A stretch of DNA of 64,000 bases from a virus (IMGVR_UViG_3300035070_003276:24994-88993); one strand, 5' to 3'. Positions 26,502 to 44,274 are shown, numbered from the stretch's first letter. The notes: a model not told the origin generated them from the letters alone. Translations and numbers: made by a program.

Positions 26502-27440
26502 ATGCTCTCCGCAAGAAATAAATTAGTTGTTATAAATGTATTGGATTCTACATTAGGTGTGGGTTCATCTATGAAGGGAAACGAACAGGCACATCACTGT
26601 CCTTTTTGTCACCATCATAAGAAGAAATTACAAATAAATTTAGATTCTCAATATTGGCATTGTTGGGTATGTGATTCTAAGGGAAGAAGTATCCAATCAC
26701 TTTTACGGAAGCTAAATGTAGATAGAGGTGATTTATCAAAAATCATTTCTATCTATGGAGAGTATAAACCATCTACTAATCATAAGGAGGTAGAAAAAAT
26801 ACAACTTAAACTTCCTAAAGAATTCAAACCACTTCATCAGAAACCAAAATCGATAGATTTTGCATACAATCAAGCATTGGGATATCTTTATAAGAGAGGT
26901 ATTACTATGGATGAAATATTAAAACATAATATTGGATATTGTGAAGATGGTATGTATGGTGGTAGGACTATTGTACCATCATATAATGCTGATGGTGAAT
27001 TAAACTATTTTGTAGCACGTTCGTATTATTCTGATAATACCATGAAATACAAAAACCCACCTGTTAGTAGAGATGTAATTGTATTTGATAACCAAATCAA
27101 TTGGAATGAACCAATTACACTAGTTGAGGGTGTGTTCGATTCATTCTCAGTAAAGAGAAACGTAATTCCCATCTTAGGAAAGTTTTTACCAAAAACATTG
27201 AAAGAGAAGATATTTGAAAAGGGAGTAAGTGAAATAAAAATCCTATTGGATGCTGATGCAGTTGATGATTCCACAAAGCATGCGGAATACTTTATAAAAA
27301 ATGGTATAAAGGTAACAAACATTATACCCACAGAAAGTGATGCTGGTGATATGGGATTTGATAAAGTAAATGAATTACTAAAAGAAACCAAAGAAAGTGG
27401 TTGGGATGATTTAATCCTATCTAAATTAAATAATATATGA
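26502..27440 (+). CDS. DNA primase (Zn finger plus TOPRIM; T4 gp61/DnaG-like)
   Basis: HCPFCHH...WHCWVC zinc finger; LVEGVFD and LLDADA TOPRIM motifs. Confidence 0.88.
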   Translation: MLSARNKLVVINVLDSTLGVGSSMKGNEQAHHCPFCHHHKKKLQINLDSQYWHCWVCDSKGRSIQSLLRKLNVDRGDLSKIISIYGEYKPSTNHKEVEKIQLKLPKEFKPLHQKPKSIDFAYNQALGYLYKRGITMDEILKHNIGYCEDGMYGGRTIVPSYNADGELNYFVARSYYSDNTMKYKNPPVSRDVIVFDNQINWNEPITLVEGVFDSFSVKRNVIPILGKFLPKTLKEKIFEKGVSEIKILLDADAVDDSTKHAEYFIKNGIKVTNIIPTESDAGDMGFDKVNELLKETKESGWDDLILSKLNNI

Positions 27441-30400
27441 AGGTAGAAAAGATTTACCATTTAGCGGATTTACATATCCGTAACTTAAAAAGACATAAGG
27501 AGTATAGAGAAGTATTCCAAAAGTTTTTGGATAATGTGGATAGAGATAATATTGAAAACTCAGTTATCTACTTAGCTGGTGATATTGCACATGCTAAAAC
27601 TGAAATGAGTCCTGAATTAGTAAGGGAAATCAGTTGGTTATTAACTGAATGTGCAAATAGAAAAGAAACATTCTTAATTACTGGAAACCACGATTGTAAC
27701 TTAAATAACAACTATCGATTGGATGTATTGACTCCAATTGTAGAAAACTTAGACAATGAAAGAATTCACTATCTTAGAGATACTGGGGTGTACAAACATC
27801 ATAATCTTACTTTTGTGGTATATTCGATACTCGATGAAAAAGAGAATTGGCCAAAGGCTAAATTGGTAGAAGGTGAGAATAAGATATGTTTATTCCATGG
27901 ACCTGTTAACCTAGCAGAAACTGATATCGGATATACTGTATCATCCAACTCTTTCACAACCGATATGTTTGATGGGTTTGATATGGTGATGTTGGGTGAT
28001 ATCCATAAAAGACAAACATTAGGAACGCCAACTATTGCATATGCTGGTTCGATGATTCAACAAAATCACGGAGAAGCTTTGAATAAGCATGGTTACTTAT
28101 TATGGGATGTTGAAAGTAGAACTTTCGAAGAGTTTGATATTGAAAACGATTATGGATTTTACACATTGGATGTAAATGATGGTGTAGTTCCGAACGTTAC
28201 CAATATGCCAAAGAAACCTCGATTAAGAGTTCGTATTTCAAATACTGACCCAACTCAGATTAAGAGAGCATTAACCGAAATCAAAAAGAAATATAAGGTT
28301 GAGGAATTCACTGTTACACGTATGGATACTCTATCTAAACAAAAGACTGGTAACTTTGATGATAAGTTGGCAATCGGAAATGTAAGAGATGTTGAATTCC
28401 AAAACGAACTCATTAAGGATTACTTAGAAAGACAATATCTTGCAGATGAAGATACTATTGACAAAATCAAAACTATCAATAGAGAGATGAATTCTAAGTT
28501 AGTAGATGATGATGTTACCCCAAACATCCAATGGGTACCAAAAACATTTGAATTTTCTAATATGTTTTCATATGGTGAGAATAACAAAATAAAATTTGAT
28601 AATGTAAATGGGATGGTTGGTATATTTGCCCCAAACGCAAGTGGTAAATCATCTTTATTTGATGCAATCTCATTTTGTATTTTTGATAAGACAAGTAGAA
28701 CCTATGTAGCAAAGAATGTTCTAAATAATAGAAAAGATAACTTCTATTGTAAATTACACTTTCAAATAGAAGATGTAGATTATTTTATAGAGAGGAGAGC
28801 AAAACTCATCAATAAAGGTAAGAATCTAAAAGTAGATGTTTCCTTTTGGAAAGAAGATGTGGGTGGTATCACTTCATTGAATGGAGAGCAGAGGAGAGAA
28901 ACCAACTCAATTATTCAACAATACTTAGGAACCTATGATGATTTTGTTCTCACTACTCTATCACTTCAAGGAAACAACTCATTATTTATTGATAAATCTC
29001 AATCAGAGAGAAAGGAAATCCTTGCTCAATTTATGGGAGTAGATGTGTTTGATAAACTCTACAACTTTGCACAAGATGAGAATAGAGATAACGCTTCACT
29101 CATACGTAAGTTTAAACAAGATGATTTTACTCAGAAGTTAGCTGATATCGAAGTTGAATTAAAATCTAAAGAAGCTGAATATAAGTTAGAAGAAATAAAT
29201 CTATCAACGGCTAATGCTGAAGTGGAGAAGCACAATCAAAAATTAATCTCCCTCAACGAAAAAGTTGTAAAAGTTAAATCCGACAATTATTCTTTGACCG
29301 AATTGGAAACCAAAAAATCGACGGTGGTAGGAAAGTTAGTAACTTTGGAAGAACAACGAAATTTAAACCAAAGTAAGATTGAAACTTTAGAAGATGAACA
29401 AATTGGATTGGAAGAATCTATTGATACGTATGATGAAGATGATATCATCAAAGAGGTGGAGTTATTTAATCAATACACTTCGGATTTAAAGGATTTAGAT
29501 AATGAGTTGGATAAGATGAAAATTAGAGAGGATTCTCTAATGGAAAGAATGGCTCATTTGGAAACTCATAAATACAATACTGATTGTGAGATTTGTATGG
29601 AGAATTCAGAATCCATCATCGATGCTAAAGTTGGTGTAGAAGCAGACTTATCTATCATTTCGGTGGAGAAGAAAGAAAAGTTTGAATATAAGAACGAACT
29701 CCTTTTGGGTATCGATAGTAGAAAGAAATACCCAGAATTGTTGAAAGAACTCAACAAACTAAAAGTTGATGAAGAAAAGGTAAGTAGAGATATTAACACA
29801 CTTATCAACAAGTTATCAACAATGGAAACTCAAGAAGTGAAGTTAAATTCGGAACTTCTTCAAGTTACACAACTGATTACGGATTATTTGGAGAATGAAA
29901 AGCAAATCAAACAAAACAAAGAACTAAGAACCGAAATCCAAAATGTACGAACTGAATTACTTAATTCAAAGAAAAATTTGGAAAAGGCAAATAAAGTAAT
30001 TCTTAAACTAAATGGTGAAGTATCATCTCTTACTAATCAGAAACAAACCATTGAGGAACGAATAAAGGAGGTTGCAAAATTAGAAGAACAATTTGGATTA
30101 TATGAATACTACTTAAACGCTTTGGGTAAAGATGGGGTATCGTATGAATTGATTTCAAAGGCACTTCCAATGATTGAAGGTGAGGTAAACAACATCTTAG
30201 GTCAAATTGTAGAGTTTGGTTTACAATTGGAAATGGATGGGAAAAACATCAACGCTAACATCGTTTACGATGACCAGAAATGGAGTTTGGAGATGTGTAG
30301 TGGTATGGAGAGGTTCATTAGTGGTTTAGCTATTAGAATCGCTCTAATCAACGTATGTAACCTACCTCGTCCTAACTTCTTAGTAGTGGATGAAGGATTT

Positions 30401-30568
30401 GGAACTTTGGATAACGAAAACCTAACATCATTGTATATGTTGTTCGCTTATCTAAAAACTCAATTTGATTTTGTGATGATTATCTCACACATCGATTCAA
30501 TGAGGGATGTGGTGGATACTTTGATGGAAATCAAAAAAGTAAATGGATTCAGTAACATTAAATTTTAA
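27437..30568 (+). CDS. fused SbcD-SbcC (Mre11-Rad50; T4 gp47-gp46-like) nuclease-ATPase
   Basis: phosphoesterase motifs DLH, GD, GNHD, HG and GDIH; Walker A APNASGKSS; zinc hook CEIC; signature CSGMERF; Walker B VVDEGFGTLD; H-loop ISH. Confidence 0.92.
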   Translation: MKVEKIYHLADLHIRNLKRHKEYREVFQKFLDNVDRDNIENSVIYLAGDIAHAKTEMSPELVREISWLLTECANRKETFLITGNHDCNLNNNYRLDVLTPIVENLDNERIHYLRDTGVYKHHNLTFVVYSILDEKENWPKAKLVEGENKICLFHGPVNLAETDIGYTVSSNSFTTDMFDGFDMVMLGDIHKRQTLGTPTIAYAGSMIQQNHGEALNKHGYLLWDVESRTFEEFDIENDYGFYTLDVNDGVVPNVTNMPKKPRLRVRISNTDPTQIKRALTEIKKKYKVEEFTVTRMDTLSKQKTGNFDDKLAIGNVRDVEFQNELIKDYLERQYLADEDTIDKIKTINREMNSKLVDDDVTPNIQWVPKTFEFSNMFSYGENNKIKFDNVNGMVGIFAPNASGKSSLFDAISFCIFDKTSRTYVAKNVLNNRKDNFYCKLHFQIEDVDYFIERRAKLINKGKNLKVDVSFWKEDVGGITSLNGEQRRETNSIIQQYLGTYDDFVLTTLSLQGNNSLFIDKSQSERKEILAQFMGVDVFDKLYNFAQDENRDNASLIRKFKQDDFTQKLADIEVELKSKEAEYKLEEINLSTANAEVEKHNQKLISLNEKVVKVKSDNYSLTELETKKSTVVGKLVTLEEQRNLNQSKIETLEDEQIGLEESIDTYDEDDIIKEVELFNQYTSDLKDLDNELDKMKIREDSLMERMAHLETHKYNTDCEICMENSESIIDAKVGVEADLSIISVEKKEKFEYKNELLLGIDSRKKYPELLKELNKLKVDEEKVSRDINTLINKLSTMETQEVKLNSELLQVTQLITDYLENEKQIKQNKELRTEIQNVRTELLNSKKNLEKANKVILKLNGEVSSLTNQKQTIEERIKEVAKLEEQFGLYEYYLNALGKDGVSYELISKALPMIEGEVNNILGQIVEFGLQLEMDGKNINANIVYDDQKWSLEMCSGMERFISGLAIRIALINVCNLPRPNFLVVDEGFGTLDNENLTSLYMLFAYLKTQFDFVMIISHIDSMRDVVDTLMEIKKVNGFSNIKF

Positions 30569-31649: not shown

Positions 31650-34600
31650 ATGGCTAGAATTAAAAAGTATTCACCAGAACAAAACTTATCATCATTTCAA
31701 ACATTAATTGTAGATGATAACCCTAATTCGGATTATTTTAGAATAACTGAATTTAAAGATACATTTACTGGTGGTAAAAACGGGTTTCTTATTGAGGGGT
31801 CTGAATACCTAAAAGAAACTACTGAAATAAAAATAGAGATTTTAGATGTAGAGGGGAATCCTATATTCTATGAGCCAGCAAAGGGTATCCCAGAATACTA
31901 TGAAGGTATATCATCCCTAATAGCAGTTTATATTTATAATGATACACCAATTGGATTGGGTAAGATTACTATTTTAGGTGAACTCAAAGAGTACATTGAT
32001 AATGATGTAAAACGAACTATTCCAGATGTATGGAAAGGTACATACAATGTTAAATGGGAACGTACATTTCAAATTAATAAAATACTTGCTAATGAGGATA
32101 GAGTTAGATTCTTTAAAAGACCTCAAATCAATATTGATGAAATTAACAAACCTATATTCAATAATAATGCAAATTTAGTAACTCAGATTGGTAATGTTAA
32201 TGGTATCCCATTAGCACCAACCGCTGGTACTTCATTAACTGAATTTTCGTTACCAACATCATATAGATTGAATGTTAGTAATGGTTCTAATTGGACGGGT
32301 TCAATTGAGGGTAATAGTATTTCTTTTGATAGTATTGATTATAATCCAATTGTATTAGATGTTGTAAGTGAAACTGAAATAATTGTTTCACCACCATATG
32401 CACCTAATGGAATTGTGGCACCTTTTTCAAATGAAAGTTATACTACATCATTTAATTATTTAGAAGGCGTATCTGATTTAGCAACCGCACTTACTGGTTC
32501 ATTCGCTAAGATTAGTATTACTGATATGAAAACAGTAGTTGGTGATGCTGCAAGAGTAAAAGTATATAGACGTTCTCAATCAAACTTAACCGATTATGAG
32601 TTTGTACAAGAAATACAATTAGAATCAAATGAGTTATTAAGAGATATAGAAACTACCGAAGCTAATGAAATTAGTTATGGTACGTTTACACAAGATGTGT
32701 TATCACAATATTGGATGACTTCATCAAATGATATCTCAGTAGAACTAAATACTGGATTCTTATACAACTCAACTAAGTTAAACTCAACCGAAGGAAACTA
32801 CTTTCTTACAAAGCAATCATTTCCAATTCAGAGTGGTGTAGAATATACATTAGATTTTAATGTTAAAAAGGGTAGTGTTTCCCCAACTGATTTCCTAAAA
32901 GTAACTTTAAGTGGTTCTTTAAATGGAACTCCAAAATCACAAACAATTGTAAATATACCATCATCAAATGCTATTTTACAAAAACGAAATTTTACCGAAA
33001 ATATAATTGCTGATGATTTTGATGAAGCAAGGTTATATTTTGAAGTCGATGGGGTTGATTGGTACGTTAATAATGTAAGTTTGAAAGCATCACAGGAAAC
33101 ATCGTTTTCTCCTGATGAAATTACATTTATACAACAAGTACCAAAAACATTACAAACTGAAACATTTGATTATAGATTTGAATTCTATGATATCAACAAC
33201 AATTATATACCTGTATTAGTTGAAGATACAAAAACATTTGATGGTGGAAATTTAAATCTTTTTAATAAAGATATTACAATTACACCAAACAATTTATATT
33301 TCTCATTTGATTCAGCATCTGCGCCATCAAATCCGTTACCACCAACAACAATTACATTTGATGTGGAAACAACTTTGGTTACTGGTTCAATTACATATAC
33401 ATCTGGTGCATATGATGAGTTTGGTGATTTGATTTTATCATCCGAATATGTAGGTGGACAGTATCCTGGTTTAATGAGTGGATATGAAACTCTAAGTCCA
33501 ACATTAACTGTTGCTGATTTTACTGGTTCCAGAGATGATATTACTGTACAATATATTAGATTCACTGGTGAGGTGGAGGGTGTATCCGATGATGTAGTAA
33601 TCACCAGAACTCAAGATGGTAAGGGTGGTGTAAACTTTGAAATTAGACCTTATAGAGGTACCATTATAAAAAATAAAGATGAGAGTACATTGGAGGTACA
33701 AGCAATTCGTATCGATGGTGTTAACGAAATCATACTAAAAGATAACTTACCACAAAATGGATTCTCTGATGCAAAGTTGAGAGTACAAAGTGGGTCTGAG
33801 TACATATTATTATCTGAGGCACAATCAAGTGGATTCATACAAGGGTTAACCGCTGGTATAACTGGTAGTGGTGAATTGAATTATAACGCTGTATTTGATA
33901 GAACATCTATTACGGGTCAGTTACCATTATACCTAATGGATGGTACTACTGAGCAAGATATCCTAACAACTTTATTGTTAACTGATTTACAAGATGGATT
34001 GGGTGCTGGATTTGTTACATTTGATGTAGAACAATTTAACATCAATCCAAAAGAAGATACAACATTTACACCACAAACTGCAAGTTTAGCTGGTAACTTT
34101 TATTTAAGAGGTACAAACGAATCACCAATTAGTGGTACTTTACAAGTATTCCCATCGATGTCTATTGATGAATCACTTTTACCTGAATATTATATGTTCT
34201 TTGAAACTGGTGCATTTGATAATAGAATAACTGTAACAGCAACAAACGCACAAAACGAAATTATTGGTAGTGGTATCCCTGGTGATTCGGTAGATTACTA
34301 CACACCTATTGATAGTAAGCAATTAACATTTAACTTTACATATGTAGAAGATTTCACATCAGAATCAATTAGTGTTGATAAAACAATATTTGTAGCACCG
34401 GATGGATTGGGTATTGAGCCGGTTGTTGTAAGTGTTGACCCACTTACCTTAAACTTAAACTCAAACCAACAAGGTGAGGTTTATAGTTACACTCCATTAG
34501 ATACAACAATTACTGCTAAGCAGGGTAAGTTGGATTTAATTTATACTGGTAGTGAAAAGCCGGGTACATTCTATACTGAATCAATCAGTACAACGAATAT

Positions 34601-37600
34601 AGAATATACTACTGAAAGTTTTACAAATACTACTTTATCACTTACTGGTTTTCAAAATATGACATCATCTTTGGTGGCTAATGTTGATTATAACTTAAAG
34701 GTATATCCATATTATACATCATCATTTCAAACCCAAACTATTACACAACGAATTACAAAGGGTGTGGATGGTTCAGATGCAGTTGAAATATTAGTAGAAC
34801 CATCTGTGGTAACACTACAAGCTAATGAAAATGGAACAGTATCCGATTACTCAACTGCTAATACTGATATTGTTGTTAAGCAAGGTAATTTATACCTATC
34901 ATATGAAACAAGTAGTTTACCGGGTACATATAATGTATCTGCAACTGGTAGTGGTATTGTGGTGGGTGATATATCAGCATCCTCTCAATATGATTTAGAT
35001 TTCGGAGATGAGACAGTACACTTTACAAACTTTAGTGAATTGGAAGGTGGTAGTGGTTCGGTTGATTACAACTTTGTTGTATTCCCATACTCATTAACAA
35101 ATGGTGTGGCTGGTGTAGTTGAAACTTATAATAAAAAGCAGGTATTCTCAAAATCAAATGATGGTACAGCTGCAAGAAGTGTAAGTTTATCAACCACAAC
35201 AGAAGTTGTAAACTTTGATGGAGATGGTGTGGTTACCTCACCATTAGGTTCGATATTCTTAGAAGCAACTGCATTCAACGTAACTGCATCACAAACGTAT
35301 TACCAATTCTTTAGAGATGGATTTGCATATAGTTTAGTTGGAACTGAACCTACATTTGAAATTGGTTCTGGTGATGCAACTTCACCTGGTGAAACTGCAA
35401 CTTGGAGAGTTCAAATTAGAGATGGTCAATCTAATTCACCAGTAGTAGCATCCTCAGAGGTAACTATTGCGGGTATCAAAGCAGGGGCCGATAACTATCA
35501 AGTATTTTTAACAAACCCATCACCAAGTGTTGGAGTTGAGGTTGATGGTACTACTACACTAGATACAACTGGAACTCAAATAACGGCACTTAAAGGTACA
35601 ACTCAATTAACGCATGTATCAACATATTCCGATGAAACTTTAGATTTAATTGGAGACCCGATTGGTACAATTGGTGAATTTTCATCATCATTGTATTATG
35701 TACCACCATTTATAACACAACCAAATATACCAAACGGAAATCCGGCTAACATAGACCCAATAACAGATTGGAGTACACCGCAAGATAACAAAGCAGCTAC
35801 AATTGTTTATAAGGTTGATATAGAAAATGGTAGAGCAACTTATTTCTTATCACAATCACTTTCAACTGTATTTGAAGGAGCAACTGGGCCTGGTATTGTT
35901 GTAAGGGGTGAATGGACTGGTTCGGTTGATTACTTATTTAGTTTAGAACAAAAACGTAGAGATGCAGTAGTTTACAAATACGATAATGGTGGTGAGCAAG
36001 AAACTCATTACTTTGGTACAACAAATACATTAAACGATTTTAAGAGATTACCATATACATCTTCAGTTGGTATTACTGATGAACCATCTTATGATGGAAC
36101 GCAAGAACAGGGTGATGTAGATACATTTGGTTGGGAATACTTAGGACAACAAGATATGTTTGTTGCTGCTAAGATAGCAATCTTCGAAGAATCATTTGTA
36201 GAAAATACAATAAATGTTGGTATTCCGCCTGATGGATTTCCTAACGCAAATATTGCAATAGTTGGTGGAACCGATGAACCTTATATAGCAATTGGTCAAC
36301 AAGGTACTCAAGGATTCGCTCAACCTGGTGTGTTTATGGGTATGACTAATGATGGTGGTCCTAATGGTACGTCTGGTACAATGGGTATATTATCGTTAAA
36401 ATCAACACCAAATGGTGGTGAATATAAATCGTTAGAATGGGATGGTGATACACTCACAATTAGAGGTTCAATTAGACAAACTGCGGCTGGTGTAGTAGAA
36501 CCATCACTTAGAGGAACTTGGGCAGATGGAGTAGATTACAATCCAGAAGATTTAGTACAATACATTGGTGAGACTTGGAGTTCAAATACTACACATACAT
36601 CAAATATATCAGGTGGAGTAACTGATGGACCTCCGGGAACCGGTCCTTGGACTATTGCAGCTGGCGCAGGTAAAAACATAAGTTTATCAGCCGATTCATA
36701 TGTAATACAATATGATGAATTTGGATTAAACCCAATACCATCTTCAACAATCTCCTTAATTGCATCATCATCAAATTTTGTTGATGCATATTATAAGTTT
36801 ACTGGAGGTGGTGCGGTATTTACGGATGAAACTTCATTTACTGATGGGTTAACCGCAAATACCGATACGGCAACATTAACTGTTCCATCATCGTATTTCT
36901 CAACACCATTGACAATTAAAGTTGCAGTTTCTGAGGGTAATCAGGTAGAAAAATTATCCGATACAATTACCATAACTGCATTAAAATCTGGAGCAGATTC
37001 TACACCACAATATATGATTACTCCATTGACTGGAACTCAAATCAAAAATAGTAGTGGTAATATTGAACTACAAGTTCAAGAATCATCTATAAATGGATTG
37101 AGTGATGTAAATAGTGGTGATATTAAAATATACAAAAACGATTCATCTTTATTAAACGCTTCAATGAGTGGTGTTACTGGTGATGAGTATAACCCAACAT
37201 TGGATTCAGATGCAATAACTGGTACACTAAATCTACAATTAAGAGATGTATCCGATAACGTATTAGATTCAATCACATTAGTTGATGTTAGTGATGGTTT
37301 AGGTGGTGGTTCATTTATTTCACCAAACTTAAAAGCAACGAGAAATCCAGGTTACGGAATTTATAATCCAACATTCTTATCAGCAACCGCATCATTCTTC
37401 GATACATCTGGAACCGAATACCAAAAGCAAGTTCGAATCACACCATCGTTAAGTGGTGTAACCGACTATATGGAAGTTGGTACGGCGAGTGGGGATAGTG
37501 AAATTACTATCACCGCAAACGATGGTGATGGTGGTAGTATCACATTGGGTGGTTCATCGGTAGCAACTAAAGATGTTGTATTAGTTGCAACATTCACAGA

Positions 37601-40600
37601 CCCAGCTACTTCACAAACAACTACGATTAACGAAACATTCTATATTGTTTCGGATGGAGCCGATGGGTTATCAGCAATAACTGTTGTTAATACGAATCAA
37701 TCACATACATTACCTGCCTCATCTGATGGAGTAGTTTCATCTTATGTTGGTAGTGGTACTAATATTTTTGTATATGAGGGAACTGGTTCTCTATCGTATG
37801 ATGGGTTTGGTACATCAGTTGCAACTTGGAAAGTATCTTCTTCTATATCACCTGATAACGTAATTACTGTTGGTTCAATAACCGATAATGGTGATGATAT
37901 TACAATTGGTGATTATAGTGGAATGGATAGTGGTGAATCAATCGCAAATATTACACATACTATCACAGGTCGCAGGGTAAATGGGGATTCATTTACATCA
38001 GAAACAACGCAAACTATTACTAAGGCTAAGGGTGGTAGTGATGGTGCACCTGGTAGCTCTGGTGCTGGTGTAACTTATAGAGGTGAATGGGCAAATGATG
38101 CTGGTGTAACCTACAACTCATCAGATGCAAGAAAAGATGTTGTTAAATTTAATGGTGATTTCTATATTGCAGATTATGATGGTGGTGATACATTTGCTGG
38201 AAACATATCACCACCAAACGCAACTTATTGGACTACCTTTGGAGCACAATTTGAATCAGTAGCTACTGATATCTTATTCGCTGAAGATGTTTACGCTAAC
38301 CGAACTGTAAACATTGGTACTGGTGAAAGTGGAAACCCTGTAATTGCTCTGAACGCTGATTCATCATCTGGATACGCAAATCCATTCATATCAATTGGAC
38401 AAACCACACAAGGGTTTGAAAGTGATGGTATCTTTATGGGTTTTGATGAAGGAACTGCAAGTTTATCTTTAACTGGTGAAAATGTAAAAACAAACATTGG
38501 TGGATGGCAAGTCGATAAGAGTGGTTTATTTTATGAAACCGAATATTCTATTGGAGATGCAATAACAACTGAATTTTACGCAACATCATCACTTGCACCA
38601 GGTTCAATTCCAAACTGGCTATATTATTCTGGGATTTATAATGTAGTATATAATTATTATTTTGGTTCCGGAACCAACGGAGTACTTACAACTAATGATG
38701 CAGTAAAAATTTATACAAGAACACCTGACCCTTTTGGTAGTGGTTCACAAATGACTGCATATGGTCAAATCACAACAACTCATACTATCAATGGATATGA
38801 TGGGACTGGTGATTTGGGTGTATTTACATTAGAAGGACCTGCATTATATGCGGAATCATCATCCATTGATTTACTCACATATGTAACTTCATCTTTTGAT
38901 TTGAGTGCAGGTGGTCCTGGTGACACAAAAGCTGAAATAGTATGGCTAGATGGTGCTAATTTTATACAGGCCTTTGAAGCTGGTACTTCTCGTACTGTTC
39001 CATTAAATTGGGCGACTGTTGTAAATACAGCTTCATTTTCTGATAAGAATTGGTTAGGTACACCTGATTTTGCTCCACATACAAATGCATATGTATATAC
39101 CACAAACGTAAATGTAGGTTCATATATCTCAGAATCGGTTGCAATAAAATTAGCAACCATAGATGGTGGAAACTATTTGGATGCAGGTACTGACTCTCAA
39201 ATAGAAACTGAAATATACAACACTACCGGTCAAGACTGGGTTCTATCGGTGGATGGGCAAAACCCAGCTACCAATCAATTTATCTTATACACAATACACC
39301 GAACTGGTGAGATTATTGATACATTTGGTATGGGTACTGTTAAGGCTGGTCGTTTGGGTGAATCACTCATAACTGGTGATGCTATTCGATTATCAACATC
39401 TGGCTCTGATACTGGTACCGATAAGCCATTTATATCATTAGGACAATCAACTGCTGGATATGATAGGCGTGGGGTGTTCATCGGATTCCCATCAGCATCA
39501 GCATTTCCACATTTATCTATGAGAAGTCCTTCTGGTGATTTTATGAGATACAATGGGGATTCTATTCAATTTAGTGGTGATTTAACTGGTGGTTCAATTG
39601 AGGGTACTGATATTACTGGTGGTACTCTTAGTATTGGTTTAATTAGTGGTTCAACTAATCAATATAATTTTACTGTTGATAATCAAGGTAATGTATCCGC
39701 TTCAAATGCAGAATTAAGTGGTATCGTAAACGCTAATAGTGGTAGAATTGGCGATTGGGTAATTGATGTGGATACAAATTCATTAAGAGATAATAATTCT
39801 GAAATTATATTTGAACCAAACATACCTGAATTACAATTTTACACTGGTAGTGAAAAGAAGGTAATCATCGGACCACAACCCACACTATCCGATATAGCGG
39901 GTTCAACTGGGATTGAAATGACATTTAGTAGTTTAGCAAGTGCTACACCTGATGAAGGAATTAGTGTAACTAGCACAACACCTTACGGAATATCGTATAG
40001 TAATTATTCAACGGGTAGTGTAACAACAGGACCAACGGGTGGTACTATTCCTGTAGCGGTAGGTGATATACAAATTGGATTAACAACTCCAACGATGACA
40101 CTAAATCCACCCACTCAATTTATTTCACAAACAACATCATATCCAAATTATTCACCAACGTTTACGGGTCAACTACATGGTAGAGTATTCGGACCCAATA
40201 CCATTAAACAACGTGCCTATTTATATTTAGAAGTGGTTGATACAAATAATTCTGATGCGGTTATTGGTAGAAAATTAATAGCACAAACAAGTGAGGCTAG
40301 GAGTGCATATGCAGGTCCTGGTAATTATTATACTGGAACTTATACCGGTAATGGTGGTGGCGGTGAATTAACAGTATATTCAGTAGTTGGTAATACTAAA
40401 ATAACATTATCTGATGGTTCTACGATTTTGGCAAAAGATGTTAAAAAAGGACAAAAGATATTAGCTTGGAATTGGAATGATAAGATTGATACACATAATG
40501 GTGTTGATGGGTTTGATGTATTTACAATAGATGATGTTAAGAGTAGAACTACAACCAAAATATACAAAATAACAGTAGGTGATAAGGTTGTTGAAGTATC

Positions 40601-41714
40601 GGATTCTCATGGATTTTGGAAAGATAACAATGAGCAAATAAAAGCTACTGAACTTATAGCTGGTGAAAGTAAAATTTATGTAAAAGATGGTAATTCCATT
40701 TCATTACAATTGGTTGATGGTGTTGAAATATTAGAGGGTGATAAAGTATATACATTCTCAGTTCCTGGTGTTTACAACTATATATCAAATGATATTATAT
40801 CTCATAACATTTCTACTGGATATTGGACATACACAGACACCCAACAAGGTGGTGTGGCTGCTGTAAATGGTTCTTATACTGGTGCAGCTCAAACAATAAG
40901 CATACCAATAACAACTGCATCTACTGCAGCCGCATTCAGATATTCAATTAGGTTAAGTACCCTTGCTGGATATGTAGAAAATACCAATTCATCGGGTACA
41001 ATTACTACCAATTTTATATCATCAACAGCTGCATATAATAATACATCCACACCAGCAACCTCTACTACTGGATATCTACAACCAATAACAGTGGATACTG
41101 GATTAGACTTTTCTATTTCATCTAACTTTGTTGAAATAAAAGCTGGTGGAATTCAAGTAGTATCTGACCCATCGGTTTATGTTCAGATACCAAGAAAAGC
41201 ACCTGGTTCATCGAATCCAAATATATTCTATGCTCAAGGTGGACAATCTAACTTTAAATCACTGCAAGATGCTGGATTTACTTATGATGTTGGTATCGTT
41301 TGTGATGGTATGTTGCTGCCTGGACAAGATGACCATTGGGATTTGGGTAAGGGATCTGTTAGATGGGATGATATTTACGCTAGTAGTGGTATTGTAAACT
41401 CATCGGATAGAAATCAAAAATCGAATATTCAAACATCTGATTTAGGATTGGCATTCATAAATAGTTTAGTACCATCATCATATAAGTTCATTAGTGGTAG
41501 TGTTGGTAGAACTCACTATGGTTTAATTGCTCAAGATGTTGAAGCAACTTTAGATTCGTTTGATAAAACCTCAATTGATTTTGCTGGATTGATAACGGGT
41601 TCTAATTATGGATTAAGATATCACGAATTCATTTCACCAATGATTAAGGCAATTCAAGAGTTGACTAATAAGGTTACACAATTGGAAGCTCAAATTAGTG
41701 GTTCAAATACGTAA
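31650..41714 (+). CDS. giant tail fibre / receptor-binding protein (3354 aa) with Ig-like repeats, a Hint domain and a C-terminal S74 chaperone
   Basis: repeated DGxxG-delimited beta modules; RGxW carbohydrate-binding-like repeats; Hint and peptidase S74 motifs. Confidence 0.88.
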   Translation: MARIKKYSPEQNLSSFQTLIVDDNPNSDYFRITEFKDTFTGGKNGFLIEGSEYLKETTEIKIEILDVEGNPIFYEPAKGIPEYYEGISSLIAVYIYNDTPIGLGKITILGELKEYIDNDVKRTIPDVWKGTYNVKWERTFQINKILANEDRVRFFKRPQINIDEINKPIFNNNANLVTQIGNVNGIPLAPTAGTSLTEFSLPTSYRLNVSNGSNWTGSIEGNSISFDSIDYNPIVLDVVSETEIIVSPPYAPNGIVAPFSNESYTTSFNYLEGVSDLATALTGSFAKISITDMKTVVGDAARVKVYRRSQSNLTDYEFVQEIQLESNELLRDIETTEANEISYGTFTQDVLSQYWMTSSNDISVELNTGFLYNSTKLNSTEGNYFLTKQSFPIQSGVEYTLDFNVKKGSVSPTDFLKVTLSGSLNGTPKSQTIVNIPSSNAILQKRNFTENIIADDFDEARLYFEVDGVDWYVNNVSLKASQETSFSPDEITFIQQVPKTLQTETFDYRFEFYDINNNYIPVLVEDTKTFDGGNLNLFNKDITITPNNLYFSFDSASAPSNPLPPTTITFDVETTLVTGSITYTSGAYDEFGDLILSSEYVGGQYPGLMSGYETLSPTLTVADFTGSRDDITVQYIRFTGEVEGVSDDVVITRTQDGKGGVNFEIRPYRGTIIKNKDESTLEVQAIRIDGVNEIILKDNLPQNGFSDAKLRVQSGSEYILLSEAQSSGFIQGLTAGITGSGELNYNAVFDRTSITGQLPLYLMDGTTEQDILTTLLLTDLQDGLGAGFVTFDVEQFNINPKEDTTFTPQTASLAGNFYLRGTNESPISGTLQVFPSMSIDESLLPEYYMFFETGAFDNRITVTATNAQNEIIGSGIPGDSVDYYTPIDSKQLTFNFTYVEDFTSESISVDKTIFVAPDGLGIEPVVVSVDPLTLNLNSNQQGEVYSYTPLDTTITAKQGKLDLIYTGSEKPGTFYTESISTTNIEYTTESFTNTTLSLTGFQNMTSSLVANVDYNLKVYPYYTSSFQTQTITQRITKGVDGSDAVEILVEPSVVTLQANENGTVSDYSTANTDIVVKQGNLYLSYETSSLPGTYNVSATGSGIVVGDISASSQYDLDFGDETVHFTNFSELEGGSGSVDYNFVVFPYSLTNGVAGVVETYNKKQVFSKSNDGTAARSVSLSTTTEVVNFDGDGVVTSPLGSIFLEATAFNVTASQTYYQFFRDGFAYSLVGTEPTFEIGSGDATSPGETATWRVQIRDGQSNSPVVASSEVTIAGIKAGADNYQVFLTNPSPSVGVEVDGTTTLDTTGTQITALKGTTQLTHVSTYSDETLDLIGDPIGTIGEFSSSLYYVPPFITQPNIPNGNPANIDPITDWSTPQDNKAATIVYKVDIENGRATYFLSQSLSTVFEGATGPGIVVRGEWTGSVDYLFSLEQKRRDAVVYKYDNGGEQETHYFGTTNTLNDFKRLPYTSSVGITDEPSYDGTQEQGDVDTFGWEYLGQQDMFVAAKIAIFEESFVENTINVGIPPDGFPNANIAIVGGTDEPYIAIGQQGTQGFAQPGVFMGMTNDGGPNGTSGTMGILSLKSTPNGGEYKSLEWDGDTLTIRGSIRQTAAGVVEPSLRGTWADGVDYNPEDLVQYIGETWSSNTTHTSNISGGVTDGPPGTGPWTIAAGAGKNISLSADSYVIQYDEFGLNPIPSSTISLIASSSNFVDAYYKFTGGGAVFTDETSFTDGLTANTDTATLTVPSSYFSTPLTIKVAVSEGNQVEKLSDTITITALKSGADSTPQYMITPLTGTQIKNSSGNIELQVQESSINGLSDVNSGDIKIYKNDSSLLNASMSGVTGDEYNPTLDSDAITGTLNLQLRDVSDNVLDSITLVDVSDGLGGGSFISPNLKATRNPGYGIYNPTFLSATASFFDTSGTEYQKQVRITPSLSGVTDYMEVGTASGDSEITITANDGDGGSITLGGSSVATKDVVLVATFTDPATSQTTTINETFYIVSDGADGLSAITVVNTNQSHTLPASSDGVVSSYVGSGTNIFVYEGTGSLSYDGFGTSVATWKVSSSISPDNVITVGSITDNGDDITIGDYSGMDSGESIANITHTITGRRVNGDSFTSETTQTITKAKGGSDGAPGSSGAGVTYRGEWANDAGVTYNSSDARKDVVKFNGDFYIADYDGGDTFAGNISPPNATYWTTFGAQFESVATDILFAEDVYANRTVNIGTGESGNPVIALNADSSSGYANPFISIGQTTQGFESDGIFMGFDEGTASLSLTGENVKTNIGGWQVDKSGLFYETEYSIGDAITTEFYATSSLAPGSIPNWLYYSGIYNVVYNYYFGSGTNGVLTTNDAVKIYTRTPDPFGSGSQMTAYGQITTTHTINGYDGTGDLGVFTLEGPALYAESSSIDLLTYVTSSFDLSAGGPGDTKAEIVWLDGANFIQAFEAGTSRTVPLNWATVVNTASFSDKNWLGTPDFAPHTNAYVYTTNVNVGSYISESVAIKLATIDGGNYLDAGTDSQIETEIYNTTGQDWVLSVDGQNPATNQFILYTIHRTGEIIDTFGMGTVKAGRLGESLITGDAIRLSTSGSDTGTDKPFISLGQSTAGYDRRGVFIGFPSASAFPHLSMRSPSGDFMRYNGDSIQFSGDLTGGSIEGTDITGGTLSIGLISGSTNQYNFTVDNQGNVSASNAELSGIVNANSGRIGDWVIDVDTNSLRDNNSEIIFEPNIPELQFYTGSEKKVIIGPQPTLSDIAGSTGIEMTFSSLASATPDEGISVTSTTPYGISYSNYSTGSVTTGPTGGTIPVAVGDIQIGLTTPTMTLNPPTQFISQTTSYPNYSPTFTGQLHGRVFGPNTIKQRAYLYLEVVDTNNSDAVIGRKLIAQTSEARSAYAGPGNYYTGTYTGNGGGGELTVYSVVGNTKITLSDGSTILAKDVKKGQKILAWNWNDKIDTHNGVDGFDVFTIDDVKSRTTTKIYKITVGDKVVEVSDSHGFWKDNNEQIKATELIAGESKIYVKDGNSISLQLVDGVEILEGDKVYTFSVPGVYNYISNDIISHNISTGYWTYTDTQQGGVAAVNGSYTGAAQTISIPITTASTAAAFRYSIRLSTLAGYVENTNSSGTITTNFISSTAAYNNTSTPATSTTGYLQPITVDTGLDFSISSNFVEIKAGGIQVVSDPSVYVQIPRKAPGSSNPNIFYAQGGQSNFKSLQDAGFTYDVGIVCDGMLLPGQDDHWDLGKGSVRWDDIYASSGIVNSSDRNQKSNIQTSDLGLAFINSLVPSSYKFISGSVGRTHYGLIAQDVEATLDSFDKTSIDFAGLITGSNYGLRYHEFISPMIKAIQELTNKVTQLEAQISGSNT
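40380..40808 (+). other. Hint (intein-like / BIL-type) domain inside the tail fibre, aa 2911-3053
   Basis: SVVGNTKITLSDG (block A), VSDSHGF (block B), VYTFSVPGVYNYISNDIISHN (blocks F/G); the +1 residue is Ile. Confidence 0.85.
41403..41711 (+). other. peptidase S74 intramolecular chaperone domain
   Basis: SDRNQKSNI...LVPSSYKF...HYGLIAQDVE...LRYHEFISPMIKAIQEL followed by a coiled coil. Confidence 0.9.
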
Positions 41715-42073: not shown

Positions 42074-42105
42074 TAAATAAGTGTAATTATACACTAAATT
42101 TGTTT

Positions 42106-44274
42106 ATGTCAAAAAAGAAATTGTTATACATATCATCTCACCTATCTACTGGTGGGATGCCACAATACCTATTAAAACAAATCGAAATATTTAAAGATGA
42201 TTTTGATATTGAGGTAATTGAGGTAAATAACCACAGTGGTGGTGTATTTGTAGTTCAGAAAGACCAAATCAATAATTTGGTTAAACTACATACATTGGGA
42301 GATGATAAATCTGAAATTGTTGATTTGATAGAATCTATCGAACCAAACATCATACATTTTACAGAAGTACCAGAACACTTTTTATCTTATGATATCTTAG
42401 ATAAGTTGTGGGTAAAATCACGTAAGTACAATATTGTAGCATCAACTCATGGGTCTGGGACAAATCCAGATGAAATTCGTTACCAACCTGATAGATATGT
42501 TTTAGTATCTGAGTGGAGTAGGAGAAAGTTTGAACATTTAGGAGTTGATACCAAAGTATGGGAATATCCAATAGAGAAGCAAATATTCAATAAATCTGAA
42601 TTTAAAAAAGAATTGGGATTTGAAGAAGATTGGAAGCATGTTCTTATGGTTGGGTTATTTACTGAAGGTAAGAATCAAGGTGAAATATTCAAAGTAGCAA
42701 GAATCTTAGAAAAGTATAAAATCAAATTCCATTTCGTTGGAAACCAAGCTATGAACTTTGAATCATATTGGGGGCCTATAATGAATAGTAAGCCTGATAA
42801 TTGTATAGTATGGGGTGAACGTAATGATGTAGATAAATTCTATAAAGCATCGGATATGTTCTATTTCAGTTCTAAGTTGGAATTGAATCCACTATCAATT
42901 AAAGAAGCATTAGGGTATGGGTTACAATGTATATTCAGAAGGTTACACACTTATTTGGATACATATGATTCTAATGAATTGGTTACGTATATTGATGATG
43001 ATATAAACAATACTAAGAAAATTATAATAGAGCTATTGGAACCTCAATTCAATGAGATACCAGGTTGGTTCGCATATGCGGGGTTATATGACCGAATGGT
43101 AAATAACGCTAAAGGTGGTGAGGTATTTGTAGAAGTTGGAAGTTGGTTGGGTAAATCATCTAATCATATGGCTACATCAATTACCAAATCAAAAAAGAAT
43201 ATAGATTTTACTGTTGTTGATACTTGGAAAGGTACTGATGATGAACAACTACATCAAAACATAGTTGGTTCATATGGTGGTGATATTTATGGTGAATTTG
43301 TGGAGAACACAATAATGAGTGATAACTTTGGTACATTCACTGCTATAAAAGATACCTCTGAAAACGCATCAACTCAATTCCAAAATGATTCTATTGATTT
43401 CATAATGATTGATGCTGGGCATGATTATACTTCTGTAAAAGATGATATCAAACGATGGTATCATAAAGTTAAATCTGGTGGATTTATTACGGGTGATGAT
43501 TATGGAGTTTTCAAAGGAGTTAATGATGCTGCTAATGAATTCTTTTATAATCAGATGTTAATTGATAATCGTAGTTTTGTTCGTAGGAAGCCAAAGATTC
43601 AGATAAAACATTTAATGACTCGACCAGATGATTTAAGAGAACGTATAAGTCAAGAATCATTAAAACAACTACAATCGTATGGTATGGATTACGAAGCTAT
43701 CGTAAACACACCTTATACTGATTTCCCACCAGCAGAACATTGTAGGAGACCACAACATATATCTCCAACTAATACACCTGGTGAACTTTCACCTGGTGCT
43801 GGTTTGGGTTGGATAACTGGAGGACATTATGGTTGTTATATGGCACATAGATTCGCATTAGAAACAATGAGTCCTGATTATGATTACACATTAGTATTTG
43901 AGGCAGATGCATATATCCATAGTGGATTAATGGAGTTTGTTGAGATTGTACATAAAGCATGTTTCATATCAGAAAGAGATAATGTACCATTTATATCATT
44001 TGCAGATAATCCATCAAACTCTAAAGAAAAGATAGATGAGTTGTTTAGTAAAACCGCACACAACCAAGATTTAGCACACGCATACTTAATCCCAAATAGA
44101 GAAAAGGGATGGTGGTTAGATAGAATAAAAGATTGTGAATGGGATGTAGCTGATTTATGGTACAATCACGTATTCTACCATCACCAAAGACCAAGATACA
44201 CAACTAATAAAATGTATTCAAATCAGGCTGAAGGATTTTCATTATTGGATTTAACAAATAAGACTTGGAAATGA
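42106..44274 (+). CDS. three-domain enzyme: GT-B (GT4-like) glycosyltransferase, class I SAM methyltransferase, GT-A (GT25-like) glycosyltransferase
   Basis: HLSTGGMPQY...SKLELNPLSIKEALG; FVEVGSWLGKS...DFIMIDAGHDY...GGFITGDDY; GHYGCYMAH...LVFEADA; ATG 42106 preferred to TTG 42100. Confidence 0.8.
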   Translation: MSKKKLLYISSHLSTGGMPQYLLKQIEIFKDDFDIEVIEVNNHSGGVFVVQKDQINNLVKLHTLGDDKSEIVDLIESIEPNIIHFTEVPEHFLSYDILDKLWVKSRKYNIVASTHGSGTNPDEIRYQPDRYVLVSEWSRRKFEHLGVDTKVWEYPIEKQIFNKSEFKKELGFEEDWKHVLMVGLFTEGKNQGEIFKVARILEKYKIKFHFVGNQAMNFESYWGPIMNSKPDNCIVWGERNDVDKFYKASDMFYFSSKLELNPLSIKEALGYGLQCIFRRLHTYLDTYDSNELVTYIDDDINNTKKIIIELLEPQFNEIPGWFAYAGLYDRMVNNAKGGEVFVEVGSWLGKSSNHMATSITKSKKNIDFTVVDTWKGTDDEQLHQNIVGSYGGDIYGEFVENTIMSDNFGTFTAIKDTSENASTQFQNDSIDFIMIDAGHDYTSVKDDIKRWYHKVKSGGFITGDDYGVFKGVNDAANEFFYNQMLIDNRSFVRRKPKIQIKHLMTRPDDLRERISQESLKQLQSYGMDYEAIVNTPYTDFPPAEHCRRPQHISPTNTPGELSPGAGLGWITGGHYGCYMAHRFALETMSPDYDYTLVFEADAYIHSGLMEFVEIVHKACFISERDNVPFISFADNPSNSKEKIDELFSKTAHNQDLAHAYLIPNREKGWWLDRIKDCEWDVADLWYNHVFYHHQRPRYTTNKMYSNQAEGFSLLDLTNKTWK

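What the first reader, a model, noticed from the sequence alone, without database searches (positions are those of the whole stretch)
40380..41714. Tail fibre tip carries two autoprocessing devices: a splicing-incompetent Hint domain and an S74 chaperone
Seen: a 143-aa Hint domain (Ser1, SxxH block B, terminal His-Asn) has no endonuclease insert and is followed by Ile rather than Cys/Ser/Thr. About 200 aa later comes a peptidase S74 domain. Known: without a +1 nucleophile, Hint/BIL domains cleave or transfer the N-terminal part to an external nucleophile instead of splicing. Inference: the distal receptor-binding tip is released or held non-covalently as an exchangeable part, or the shaft is ligated to another molecule. 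The Hint could also be a recombination anchor for tip swapping.
Basis: partly seen in the sequence, partly recalled or inferred. Interest (0 to 1): 0.75.

Follow-up and report, generated by a model that had tools for sequence, protein, structure and literature searches.

The report
Resident self-cutting Hint domain in phage fibre
A giant tail fibre of an uncultured T4-like phage carries, near its tip, a small intein-like (Hint) domain that every relative found keeps with its cutting residues intact but without the residue needed for normal splicing, which points to an undescribed self-processing step in fibre maturation.

Summary
The 3354-aa ORF (31650-41714, +) contains a 143-aa Hint domain at aa 2911-3053. 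It has Ser1, block B SxxH and terminal His-Asn, then Ile, and no endonuclease. Peptidase S74 starts 199 aa later, with an intact Ser3252/Lys3257 dyad.

New here: the Hint is a fixed part of a conserved distal fibre module, not a mobile intein.
- All relatives recovered have the order pre-Hint, Hint, post-Hint: 60 giant homologues, 14 shorter proteins and 28 viral loci. No Hint-less allele was found.
- Position 1 is a nucleophile in 60/60 (57 Ser, 3 Cys) and His-Asn is present in 60/60. The +1 residue varies freely (V, P, T, S, I, Y, A, D and others, never Cys).
- The Hint is better conserved than both segments flanking it.
- A structure model suggests it sits in a loop of one jelly-roll domain, so cutting need not release the tip.
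- Tips are swapped (S74 versus Gp53-like_C) about 190 aa downstream, not at the Hint.

"Splicing-incompetent" is not shown, because type A BIL domains ligate without a +1 nucleophile. The most likely role is type-A-BIL-like self-excision during fibre maturation; whether the ends are rejoined is open. I found no paper on it. This scan noted C-terminal Hint caps on fibres in other DNA; this internal Ser1 form is a distinct variant.

The parts
31650..41714 (+). Giant fibre ORF, 3354 aa (P0001)
   Evidence: Continuous frame. C-terminal Peptidase_S74. Relatives carry the Gp53-like_C tail-fibre tip, and one NCBI relative is named 'tail fiber domain-containing protein'. The phage context is T4-like: baseplate wedge, TerL, portal and major head protein.
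40080..40379 (+). Pre-Hint segment (aa 2811-2910), ending in a Gly run (GGGG, aa 2902-2905, nt 40353-40364) and Tyr2910 at position -1
   Evidence: Conserved in relatives (alignment A3; 23 of 32 representatives fall in one cluster). The model is confident except at the Gly linker.
40380..40808 (+). Hint domain, 143 aa (aa 2911-3053). Key residues: Ser2911 (position 1), Ser2984/His2987 (block B), Thr3035 (block F position 4), His3052-Asn3053 (block G)
   Evidence: Invariant residues are listed.
40809..40811 (+). +1 residue, Ile3054, which is not a nucleophile
   Evidence: In 60 relatives the +1 residue is V14 P11 T9 S5 I4 Y4 A4 D4 N2 E1 L1 F1.
40809..41402 (+). Post-Hint segment (aa 3054-3251) with the invariant NFVEIKAGGIQ motif. 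It runs up to the S74 cleavage serine.
   Evidence: Alignment A2. It is always directly preceded by the Hint. The model is confident for roughly its first 100 aa.
41403..41711 (+). Peptidase S74 intramolecular chaperone domain (aa 3252-3354). Ser3252 and Lys3257 form the SDRNQK dyad, and a long C-terminal helix follows.
   Evidence: Pfam E 6.9e-10. Matches S74 ends of known phage fibres. Dyad position; helix at model residues 625-652.

Best explanation
The Hint is a domesticated, non-mobile autoprocessing domain that works like a type A bacterial intein-like (BIL) domain. It is built into a conserved distal module of the fibre.

Proposed course:
1. The Hint folds on its own as a bulge from a loop of a jelly-roll (CBM-like) domain formed by the pre-Hint and post-Hint segments.
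2. Ser2911, helped by the block B Ser2984/His2987, makes an N-to-O acyl shift. This turns the Tyr2910-Ser2911 peptide bond into an ester.
3. Asn3053, helped by His3052, cyclises and cuts the Asn3053-Ile3054 bond.
4. The ester is then resolved either by water or by the freed alpha-amine of Ile3054. Water would give a two-chain fibre whose halves stay together inside the shared domain. The amine would give BIL-A-type ligation.
5. Independently, the S74 chaperone trimerises the end of the fibre and cuts itself off at Ser3252.

Shown: the fold, the motifs, their invariance, fixation at one site, the absence of Hint-less alleles and the variable +1 residue.

Inferred: that the reactions happen, their order, the fate of the ends, and the one-domain topology.
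For: - Hint fold.
- Position 1 is a nucleophile in 60/60 (57 Ser, 3 Cys) and His-Asn is present in 60/60. Block B His is 32/32 and Ser/Thr 32/32, at a mean pairwise Hint identity of 45% (minimum 27%). Asn at the end of a Hint has no known role other than cyclisation (established intein chemistry).
- The +1 residue is unconstrained, as in BIL domains (PMC4031507).
- No Hint-less allele was found. This holds for 28 IMG/VR loci located through a post-Hint motif, for 14 proteins located with a post-Hint profile and for 60 giant homologues.
- The Hint is more conserved than either adjacent flank in all 9 comparisons.
- There is no endonuclease. The Hint's GC content (0.30) lies within the window's range (0.28-0.41).
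- Jelly-roll/CBM matches span model residues about 52-460, on both sides of the Hint. The pre and post segments are not homologous to each other.
Against: - There is no biochemical or proteomic evidence. All activity is inferred from conservation.
- Two accessory positions of class 1 inteins differ. Block F position 4 is Thr/Ser rather than Asp, and block F position 13 is variable.
- The nucleophile is mostly Ser, so the intermediate is an oxyester, which is less reactive than the thioester of characterised BILs.
- Pro at +1 in 11 of 60 and Pro at -1 in 3 of 32 could slow the reactions (inference).
- The one-domain topology rests on Z 5-6 matches to a single monomer model with mean pLDDT 59. 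I could not inspect its coordinates.
- The query included the Hint, which favours Hint-bearing hits.
Confidence: 0.6

Rival explanations
1. The Hint is kept in the mature fibre as an unprocessed globular decoration, for example a binding or spacer knob, three per trimer. The 'catalytic' residues would be conserved for structural reasons.
For: The Hint is the best conserved segment, which a binding domain could also show. Block F positions 4 and 13 depart from class 1 inteins. No cleavage data exist.
Against: Joint invariance of the position 1 nucleophile, block B His and the terminal His-Asn in 60/60 at down to 27% identity is hard to explain without chemistry. Ser-to-Cys replacement at position 1 in three relatives keeps the nucleophile rather than the shape.
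Confidence: 0.15
2. The ester made at Ser2911 is resolved by a nucleophile other than water or the +1 amine. Candidates are a Lys of a neighbouring chain or of another virion protein (a covalent cross-link), or a glycan or lipid. The fibre shaft would end up covalently coupled, as in Hedgehog cholesterol transfer or Tetrahymena BUBL isopeptide conjugation.
For: BIL2 of the Tetrahymena BUBL locus is among the top structural matches and conjugates its N-terminal cargo to lysines (PMC8616854). A flexible Gly run precedes the Hint. Related phages encode a small 'cargo-GGGG-Cys-Hint' gene directly after the fibre gene. Glycosyltransferase genes lie next to the fibre gene.
Against: No acceptor has been identified. 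If only N-terminal transfer mattered, the invariant C-terminal Asn would not be needed. The structural match is at fold level only (13-14% identity).
Confidence: 0.1
3. It is a decaying selfish mini-intein stuck in the fibre gene, or mainly a DNA-level recombination anchor for swapping tips. It would have no function for the phage.
For: It has an intein-like layout with Ser1 and His-Asn. The fibre is mosaic. In 4 of 32 representatives both flanks are of another type while the Hint is kept.
Against: No Hint-less alleles were found. There is no endonuclease. The +1 nucleophile is lost, yet the other catalytic residues are invariant. The main swap point is about 190 aa downstream. The Hint's identity to relatives broadly follows that of its flanks.
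Confidence: 0.07

Closest known systems
Type A bacterial intein-like (BIL) domains (Amitai 2003; Dassa 2004; C. thermocellum BIL4, PDB 2LWY)
   Same: Mini Hint fold. N-terminal nucleophile. Block B His. C-terminal His-Asn. No conserved +1 nucleophile. Located in a variable surface protein rather than a conserved enzyme. No endonuclease. 2LWY is the best single-sequence PDB hit and scores Z 18.9.
   Different: Position 1 is Ser rather than Cys in nearly all members. Sequence similarity to 2LWY is weak (E 1.4e-3 single sequence, 1.2e-4 profile) and no better than to DnaB inteins (E 2e-8). The host is a phage tail fibre. The domain is fixed at one site across a large clade. BIL-specific motifs were not tested.
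Canonical class 1 mini-inteins (e.g. Ssp/Npu DnaB mini-inteins, PDB 1MI8, 4O1R)
   Same: Best profile and structure matches. Blocks A, B and G are present.
   Different: The +1 residue is not a nucleophile in the window or in 46 of 60 relatives. No intein-less allele was found. The host is not a conserved enzyme site. Block F position 4 is Thr/Ser rather than Asp.
Peptidase S74 intramolecular chaperone of endosialidases and fibres such as T5 pb1
   Same: C-terminal position, Pfam hit above the cut-off, SDxxxK Ser/Lys dyad, terminal helix.
   Different: Nothing unusual in the S74 domain itself. What is new is its combination with an upstream Hint. In about half of the relatives S74 is replaced by Gp53-like_C or another tip.
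C-terminal Gly-Hint(-Lys) caps and poly-Hint arrays on phage fibres, noted earlier in this scan on other DNA
   Same: Hint/BIL-like domains in phage tail-fibre proteins, often behind a Gly run, and not described in papers. Such Cys1 Hints also turned up here: an extra copy 7 aa upstream in relatives L009-L017, arrays, and small downstream genes.
   Different: The window's Hint is internal, with about 300 aa after it. It has Ser1, no conserved Lys at +1, and apparently interrupts a folded domain. It forms its own sequence cluster.

Membership tests
Hint (Hedgehog/intein) fold superfamily | Hint beta-fold with adjacent N and C termini | tested here: met
   AF2 pLDDT 92. Foldseek TM 0.77-0.84 to inteins and BILs. 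VIA Z 20.8, rmsd 1.5 over 136 aa to 4O1R. Profile E 2e-8 to 1MI8.
Canonical class 1 intein | Cys/Ser at position 1 and block B TxxH | tested here: met
   Ser2911 and Ser2984-x-x-His2987.
Canonical class 1 intein | C-terminal (His-)Asn | tested here: met
   His3052-Asn3053; present in 60/60 relatives.
Canonical class 1 intein | Cys/Ser/Thr at +1 of the C-extein | tested here: not met
   Ile3054. In relatives only 14 of 60 have Ser/Thr and none has Cys.
Canonical class 1 intein | Insertion into a host protein that also exists as intein-less alleles (mobile element) | tested here: not met
   No Hint-less allele among 28 loci, 14 proteins and 60 giant homologues. No endonuclease.
Type A BIL domain | Hint domain with an N-terminal nucleophile and C-terminal His-Asn but no conserved +1 nucleophile, in a variable non-enzyme protein | tested here: met
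Type A BIL domain | Family-specific sequence motifs, or closer relationship to known A-type BILs than to inteins | tested here: inconclusive
   2LWY is the best single-sequence hit (E 1.4e-3), but with the profile DnaB inteins score better (2e-8 versus 1.2e-4). No BIL-specific HMM was available.
Type A BIL domain | Autocleavage and/or ligation activity | not testable with these tools
   Needs expression and mass spectrometry.
Peptidase S74 (intramolecular chaperone) | Pfam PF13884 match above the gathering score at the C-terminus | tested here: met
   39.5 bits against a cut-off of 22, aa 3252-3302.
Peptidase S74 (intramolecular chaperone) | Ser-Lys catalytic dyad (S-D-x-x-x-K) | tested here: met
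   SDRNQK at aa 3252-3257. The S-D-x-x-x-K pattern is conserved in the S74-bearing relatives.

The most novel reading that the evidence does not exclude
The Hint is an acyl-transfer device rather than a mere protease. The ester it forms at the end of the 2910-aa shaft would be captured by a chosen nucleophile, such as a lysine of a neighbouring fibre chain or virion protein, or a group on the host envelope. That would cross-link the fibre covalently or anchor the phage covalently to its host. This would be chemistry not known for any phage fibre.
Probability: 0.08. Interest if true: 0.9.

Novelty: new variant of a known kind. Interest (0 to 1): 0.62.

Why it matters
Phage fibres are known to mature through chaperones and through S74 self-cleavage. 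Intein-type chemistry has not been described for them in any paper I could find.

This Hint is fixed in a large clade of aquatic T4-like phages. Its catalytic residues are invariant and its +1 residue is free. It would therefore be a natural, host-beneficial use of BIL-type processing, which bears on the old question of what BIL domains are for.

It also offers small Ser1 Hint domains that tolerate many junction residues, which could be useful for protein engineering. Finally, it shows where the exchangeable tip of these fibres really begins.

Tried and rejected
- Curated libraries barely see the Hint. Pfam Intein_splicing is below threshold, NCBIfam intein N- and C-terminal models are below their cut-offs, and PHROGs returns nothing for the whole ORF.
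- Deposited phage genomes (INPHARED) match only the S74 part. The closest cultured phages by TerL are Flavobacterium phage immuto and Microcystis phage Mel-JY01, at 56%. Neither was among the 30 rows listed for the fibre-end query; 4 of the 34 matching records were not shown.
- No whole genome is held for this window. A six-frame scan of the window finds no second Hint.
- Pre and post segments as tandem copies of one domain: rejected (hhalign probability 0.3%).
- Foreign origin judged from base composition: the Hint's GC (0.30) is below its flanks (0.37-0.38) but within the window's range (0.28-0.41), and it fits its Lys/Ile/Asn-rich composition.
- A downstream +1 nucleophile through a shifted junction: rejected. 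Relatives have HN followed by PATW, DGTW or VFGG, with no Ser, Thr or Cys immediately after the Asn.
- P0173 was the only candidate lacking a Hint. It is a 415-aa protein from a 2.4-kb contig, with an unrelated N-terminus and only the second part of the post module, so it is not a precise Hint-less allele.
- Four literature searches for Hint or intein-like domains in tail fibres found nothing relevant.

Full report
**What is there**

Window 31650-41714 (+) is one open frame of 3354 aa. Its neighbours are T4-like phage genes: baseplate wedge, primase, an SbcCD-like fusion, large terminase, portal and major head protein. The terminase is 56% identical to those of Flavobacterium phage immuto and Microcystis phage Mel-JY01. 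The source is therefore an uncultured, distant T4-like myovirus. No whole genome is held for it.

The end of the ORF is a Peptidase_S74 intramolecular chaperone at aa 3252-3302 (E 6.9e-10, above threshold). Its Ser3252/Lys3257 pair lies in SDRNQK, and S74 ends of known phage fibres match it. S74 domains and the Gp53-like_C tips of relatives mark the protein as a tail fibre.

**The Hint domain**

Residues 2911-3053 (window 40380-40808) begin SVVGNTKITLSDGS, contain VSDSHGFW and end IISHN, followed by Ile3054.

Curated models see it only weakly: Pfam Intein_splicing gives 24 bits against a cut-off of 35.8, and the NCBIfam intein N- and C-terminal models fall below their cut-offs. The fold is nonetheless certain:
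- A profile of 11 homologues matches the Ssp DnaB mini-intein from end to end at E 2e-8.
- AlphaFold2 gives pLDDT 92.
- Structure searches give the NpuDnaB intein (Z 20.8, rmsd 1.5 over 136 aa), Tetrahymena BUBL BIL2 (Z 19.4) and the C. thermocellum BIL domain 2LWY (Z 18.9).

At 143 aa there is no room for a homing endonuclease.

**It is a fixed part of the fibre, not a mobile intein**

IMG/VR holds 28 related loci. In an alignment of their fibre ends the Hint sits at the same place in every full homologue.

I then looked for Hint-less alleles in three ways:
- Loci found through a motif of the post-Hint segment (NFVEIKAGGIQ) all have the Hint directly upstream wherever upstream sequence exists.
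- A profile of the post-Hint segment against 5.8 billion proteins found 14 proteins with the full segment, and all have the Hint 0-6 residues upstream. The one exception, P0173, is a short protein from a 2.4-kb contig with an unrelated N-terminus and only part of the segment.
- All 60 giant homologues (2004-3842 aa) have the order pre-Hint, Hint, post-Hint. The query for this search contained the Hint, which favours Hint-bearing hits.

A search with the Hint profile against 1.84 billion representatives found 32 cluster representatives of this Hint type. The Hint always lay 258-380 aa from the C-terminus of a complete protein.

**Conservation pattern**

- Position 1 is a nucleophile in 60/60 homologues: 57 Ser and 3 Cys (the three 'APC|IIGTT' cases are offset by one residue in the HMM alignment).
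- The terminal His-Asn is present in 60/60.
- Among the 32 representatives (mean pairwise identity 45%, minimum 27%), block B His is 32/32, the block B Ser/Thr is 32/32, and block F position 4 is always Thr or Ser.
- The +1 residue is V14, P11, T9, S5, I4, Y4, A4, D4, N2, E, L, F, and never Cys.
- The -1 residue is equally free.
- Measured against the window, the Hint is more conserved than both adjacent segments in all nine comparisons, for example 82% versus 73% and 53% for L001, and 85% versus 64% and 44% for L004.

Selection therefore keeps the residues for N-terminal ester formation and for C-terminal Asn cyclisation, but not the residue needed for the branched intermediate of canonical splicing.

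**Where the Hint sits**

A model of aa 2700-3354 is confident for the pre-Hint part (model residues about 70-200), the Hint, and the first 100 aa after it. It is poor for the rest, as expected when a trimeric fibre is modelled as a monomer.

Below the Hint matches, the structure search lists some 17 jelly-roll or carbohydrate-binding-module structures whose aligned range runs from about residue 52 to about 460, on both sides of the Hint. These scores are only Z 5-6. The pre and post segments are not homologous to each other. A Gly run just before the Hint is conserved and is modelled as flexible.

My reading is that the Hint bulges from a loop of a single beta-sandwich domain. This is inference, because I could not inspect coordinates. 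If it is right, cutting at both borders would leave the two halves interlocked rather than releasing a tip.

**Tip swapping**

The fibre is mosaic. Its first ~2100 aa are 88-91% identical to L001 and L002, while the end is 56-66% identical.

The recurrent exchange point near the tip is about aa 3243, roughly 190 aa after the Hint. There S74 (14 representatives) alternates with Gp53-like_C (PF21882, 10 representatives) and with other ends. Only 4 of 32 representatives keep the Hint between flanks of a different kind. The 'recombination anchor' idea therefore does not fit the main pattern, and the pairing with S74 is facultative (15 of 32).

**Mechanism**

The layout equals that of type A BIL domains. 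According to the review PMC4031507, these form the N-terminal (thio)ester and cleave at the C-terminus by Asn cyclisation. They can then ligate the flanks through the freed alpha-amine, although cleavage products dominate. 'Splicing-incompetent' is thus not established.

I consider self-excision during fibre maturation the most likely function (0.6). Within that, I lean slightly towards cleavage without ligation. The Ser oxyester is less prone to aminolysis than a thioester, and 11 of 60 relatives have Pro at +1. Both points are inference.

Rivals:
- An unprocessed decoration domain (0.15).
- Transfer of the shaft end to another nucleophile, as shown for Tetrahymena BIL2, which makes isopeptide bonds (PMC8616854) (0.1).
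- A decaying selfish element (0.07).

**Comparison and novelty**

Four full-text searches found no paper on Hint or intein-like domains in tail fibres. The papers returned by the keywords concern terminase, RNR or helicase inteins. Deposited phage genomes do not contain this Hint at E 1e-5 or better.

Earlier notes of this scan describe C-terminal Gly-Hint(-Lys) caps and poly-Hint arrays on phage fibres in other genomes. I saw such Cys1 Hints here too.

The window's domain is a distinct variant. It is internal, has Ser1, has no conserved +1 Lys, and appears to interrupt a folded domain. I rate it a new variant of a known kind, of solid interest to intein and phage-structure specialists, but unproven until the processing products are seen.

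Noticed in passing
L009-L017 (e.g. L010 ORF aa 2091-2241); also P0192-P0195, P0199, P0201: One sublineage has a second, 151-aa Cys1 Hint (CLVGT...ILTHN|V) inserted after the Gly run, only 7 aa before the resident Ser1 Hint. It is not a duplicate. It is 25-34% identical to the tandem Cys1 Hints of poly-Hint proteins, and Pfam PT-HINT is listed among the precomputed domains of most proteins that carry it.
   Followed up: partly
L053:3751-4485, L056:727-1479, L057:1576-2328, L060:13537-14232: In the SVDIN/VHHN lineage and its relatives, the gene right after the fibre gene encodes a ~231-250 aa protein. It has an ~85-aa N-terminal domain, a Gly-rich linker ending GGGG, a Cys1 Hint ending HN, and about 10 more residues. 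This is a Hedgehog/BUBL-like 'cargo-Hint' layout. It is absent from the window.
   Followed up: partly
P0049, P0051, P0052, P0054, P0057, P0068, P0069, P0091 and others; L059:6001-7197: A group of 320-560 aa proteins begins with a close relative of the fibre Hint (about 90 bits). It has no nucleophile at position 1 but keeps the terminal His-Asn followed by Phe-Asp, so only C-terminal cleavage seems possible. One is encoded in a T4-like replication-gene neighbourhood.
   Followed up: partly
P0027, P0031, P0038, P0041-P0047, P0056 and many more: Many metagenomic proteins carry 2-8 tandem Cys1 Hints joined by HN|KGG(G)|CF linkers. One is named 'Hint domain-containing protein' from a Candidatus Aenigmatarchaeota MAG.
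   Followed up: no
window 41380-41714 versus L004, L005, L010 fibre ends: The fibre tip is exchanged at about aa 3243. S74 chaperone ends alternate with Gp53-like_C (PF21882) lectin-like tips and with a third, unassigned end in L004.
   Followed up: yes
window 31650-38000 versus L001, L002: The first ~2100 aa of the fibre are 88-91% identical to IMG/VR relatives whose distal third is only 56-66% identical. The central part (about aa 1610-2260) is a variable cassette region with internal repeats.
   Followed up: partly
window 42100-44274 and 27437-30568: The gene after the fibre region is a glycosyltransferase/methyltransferase fusion. An SbcD-SbcC-like single-chain fusion lies upstream.
   Followed up: no
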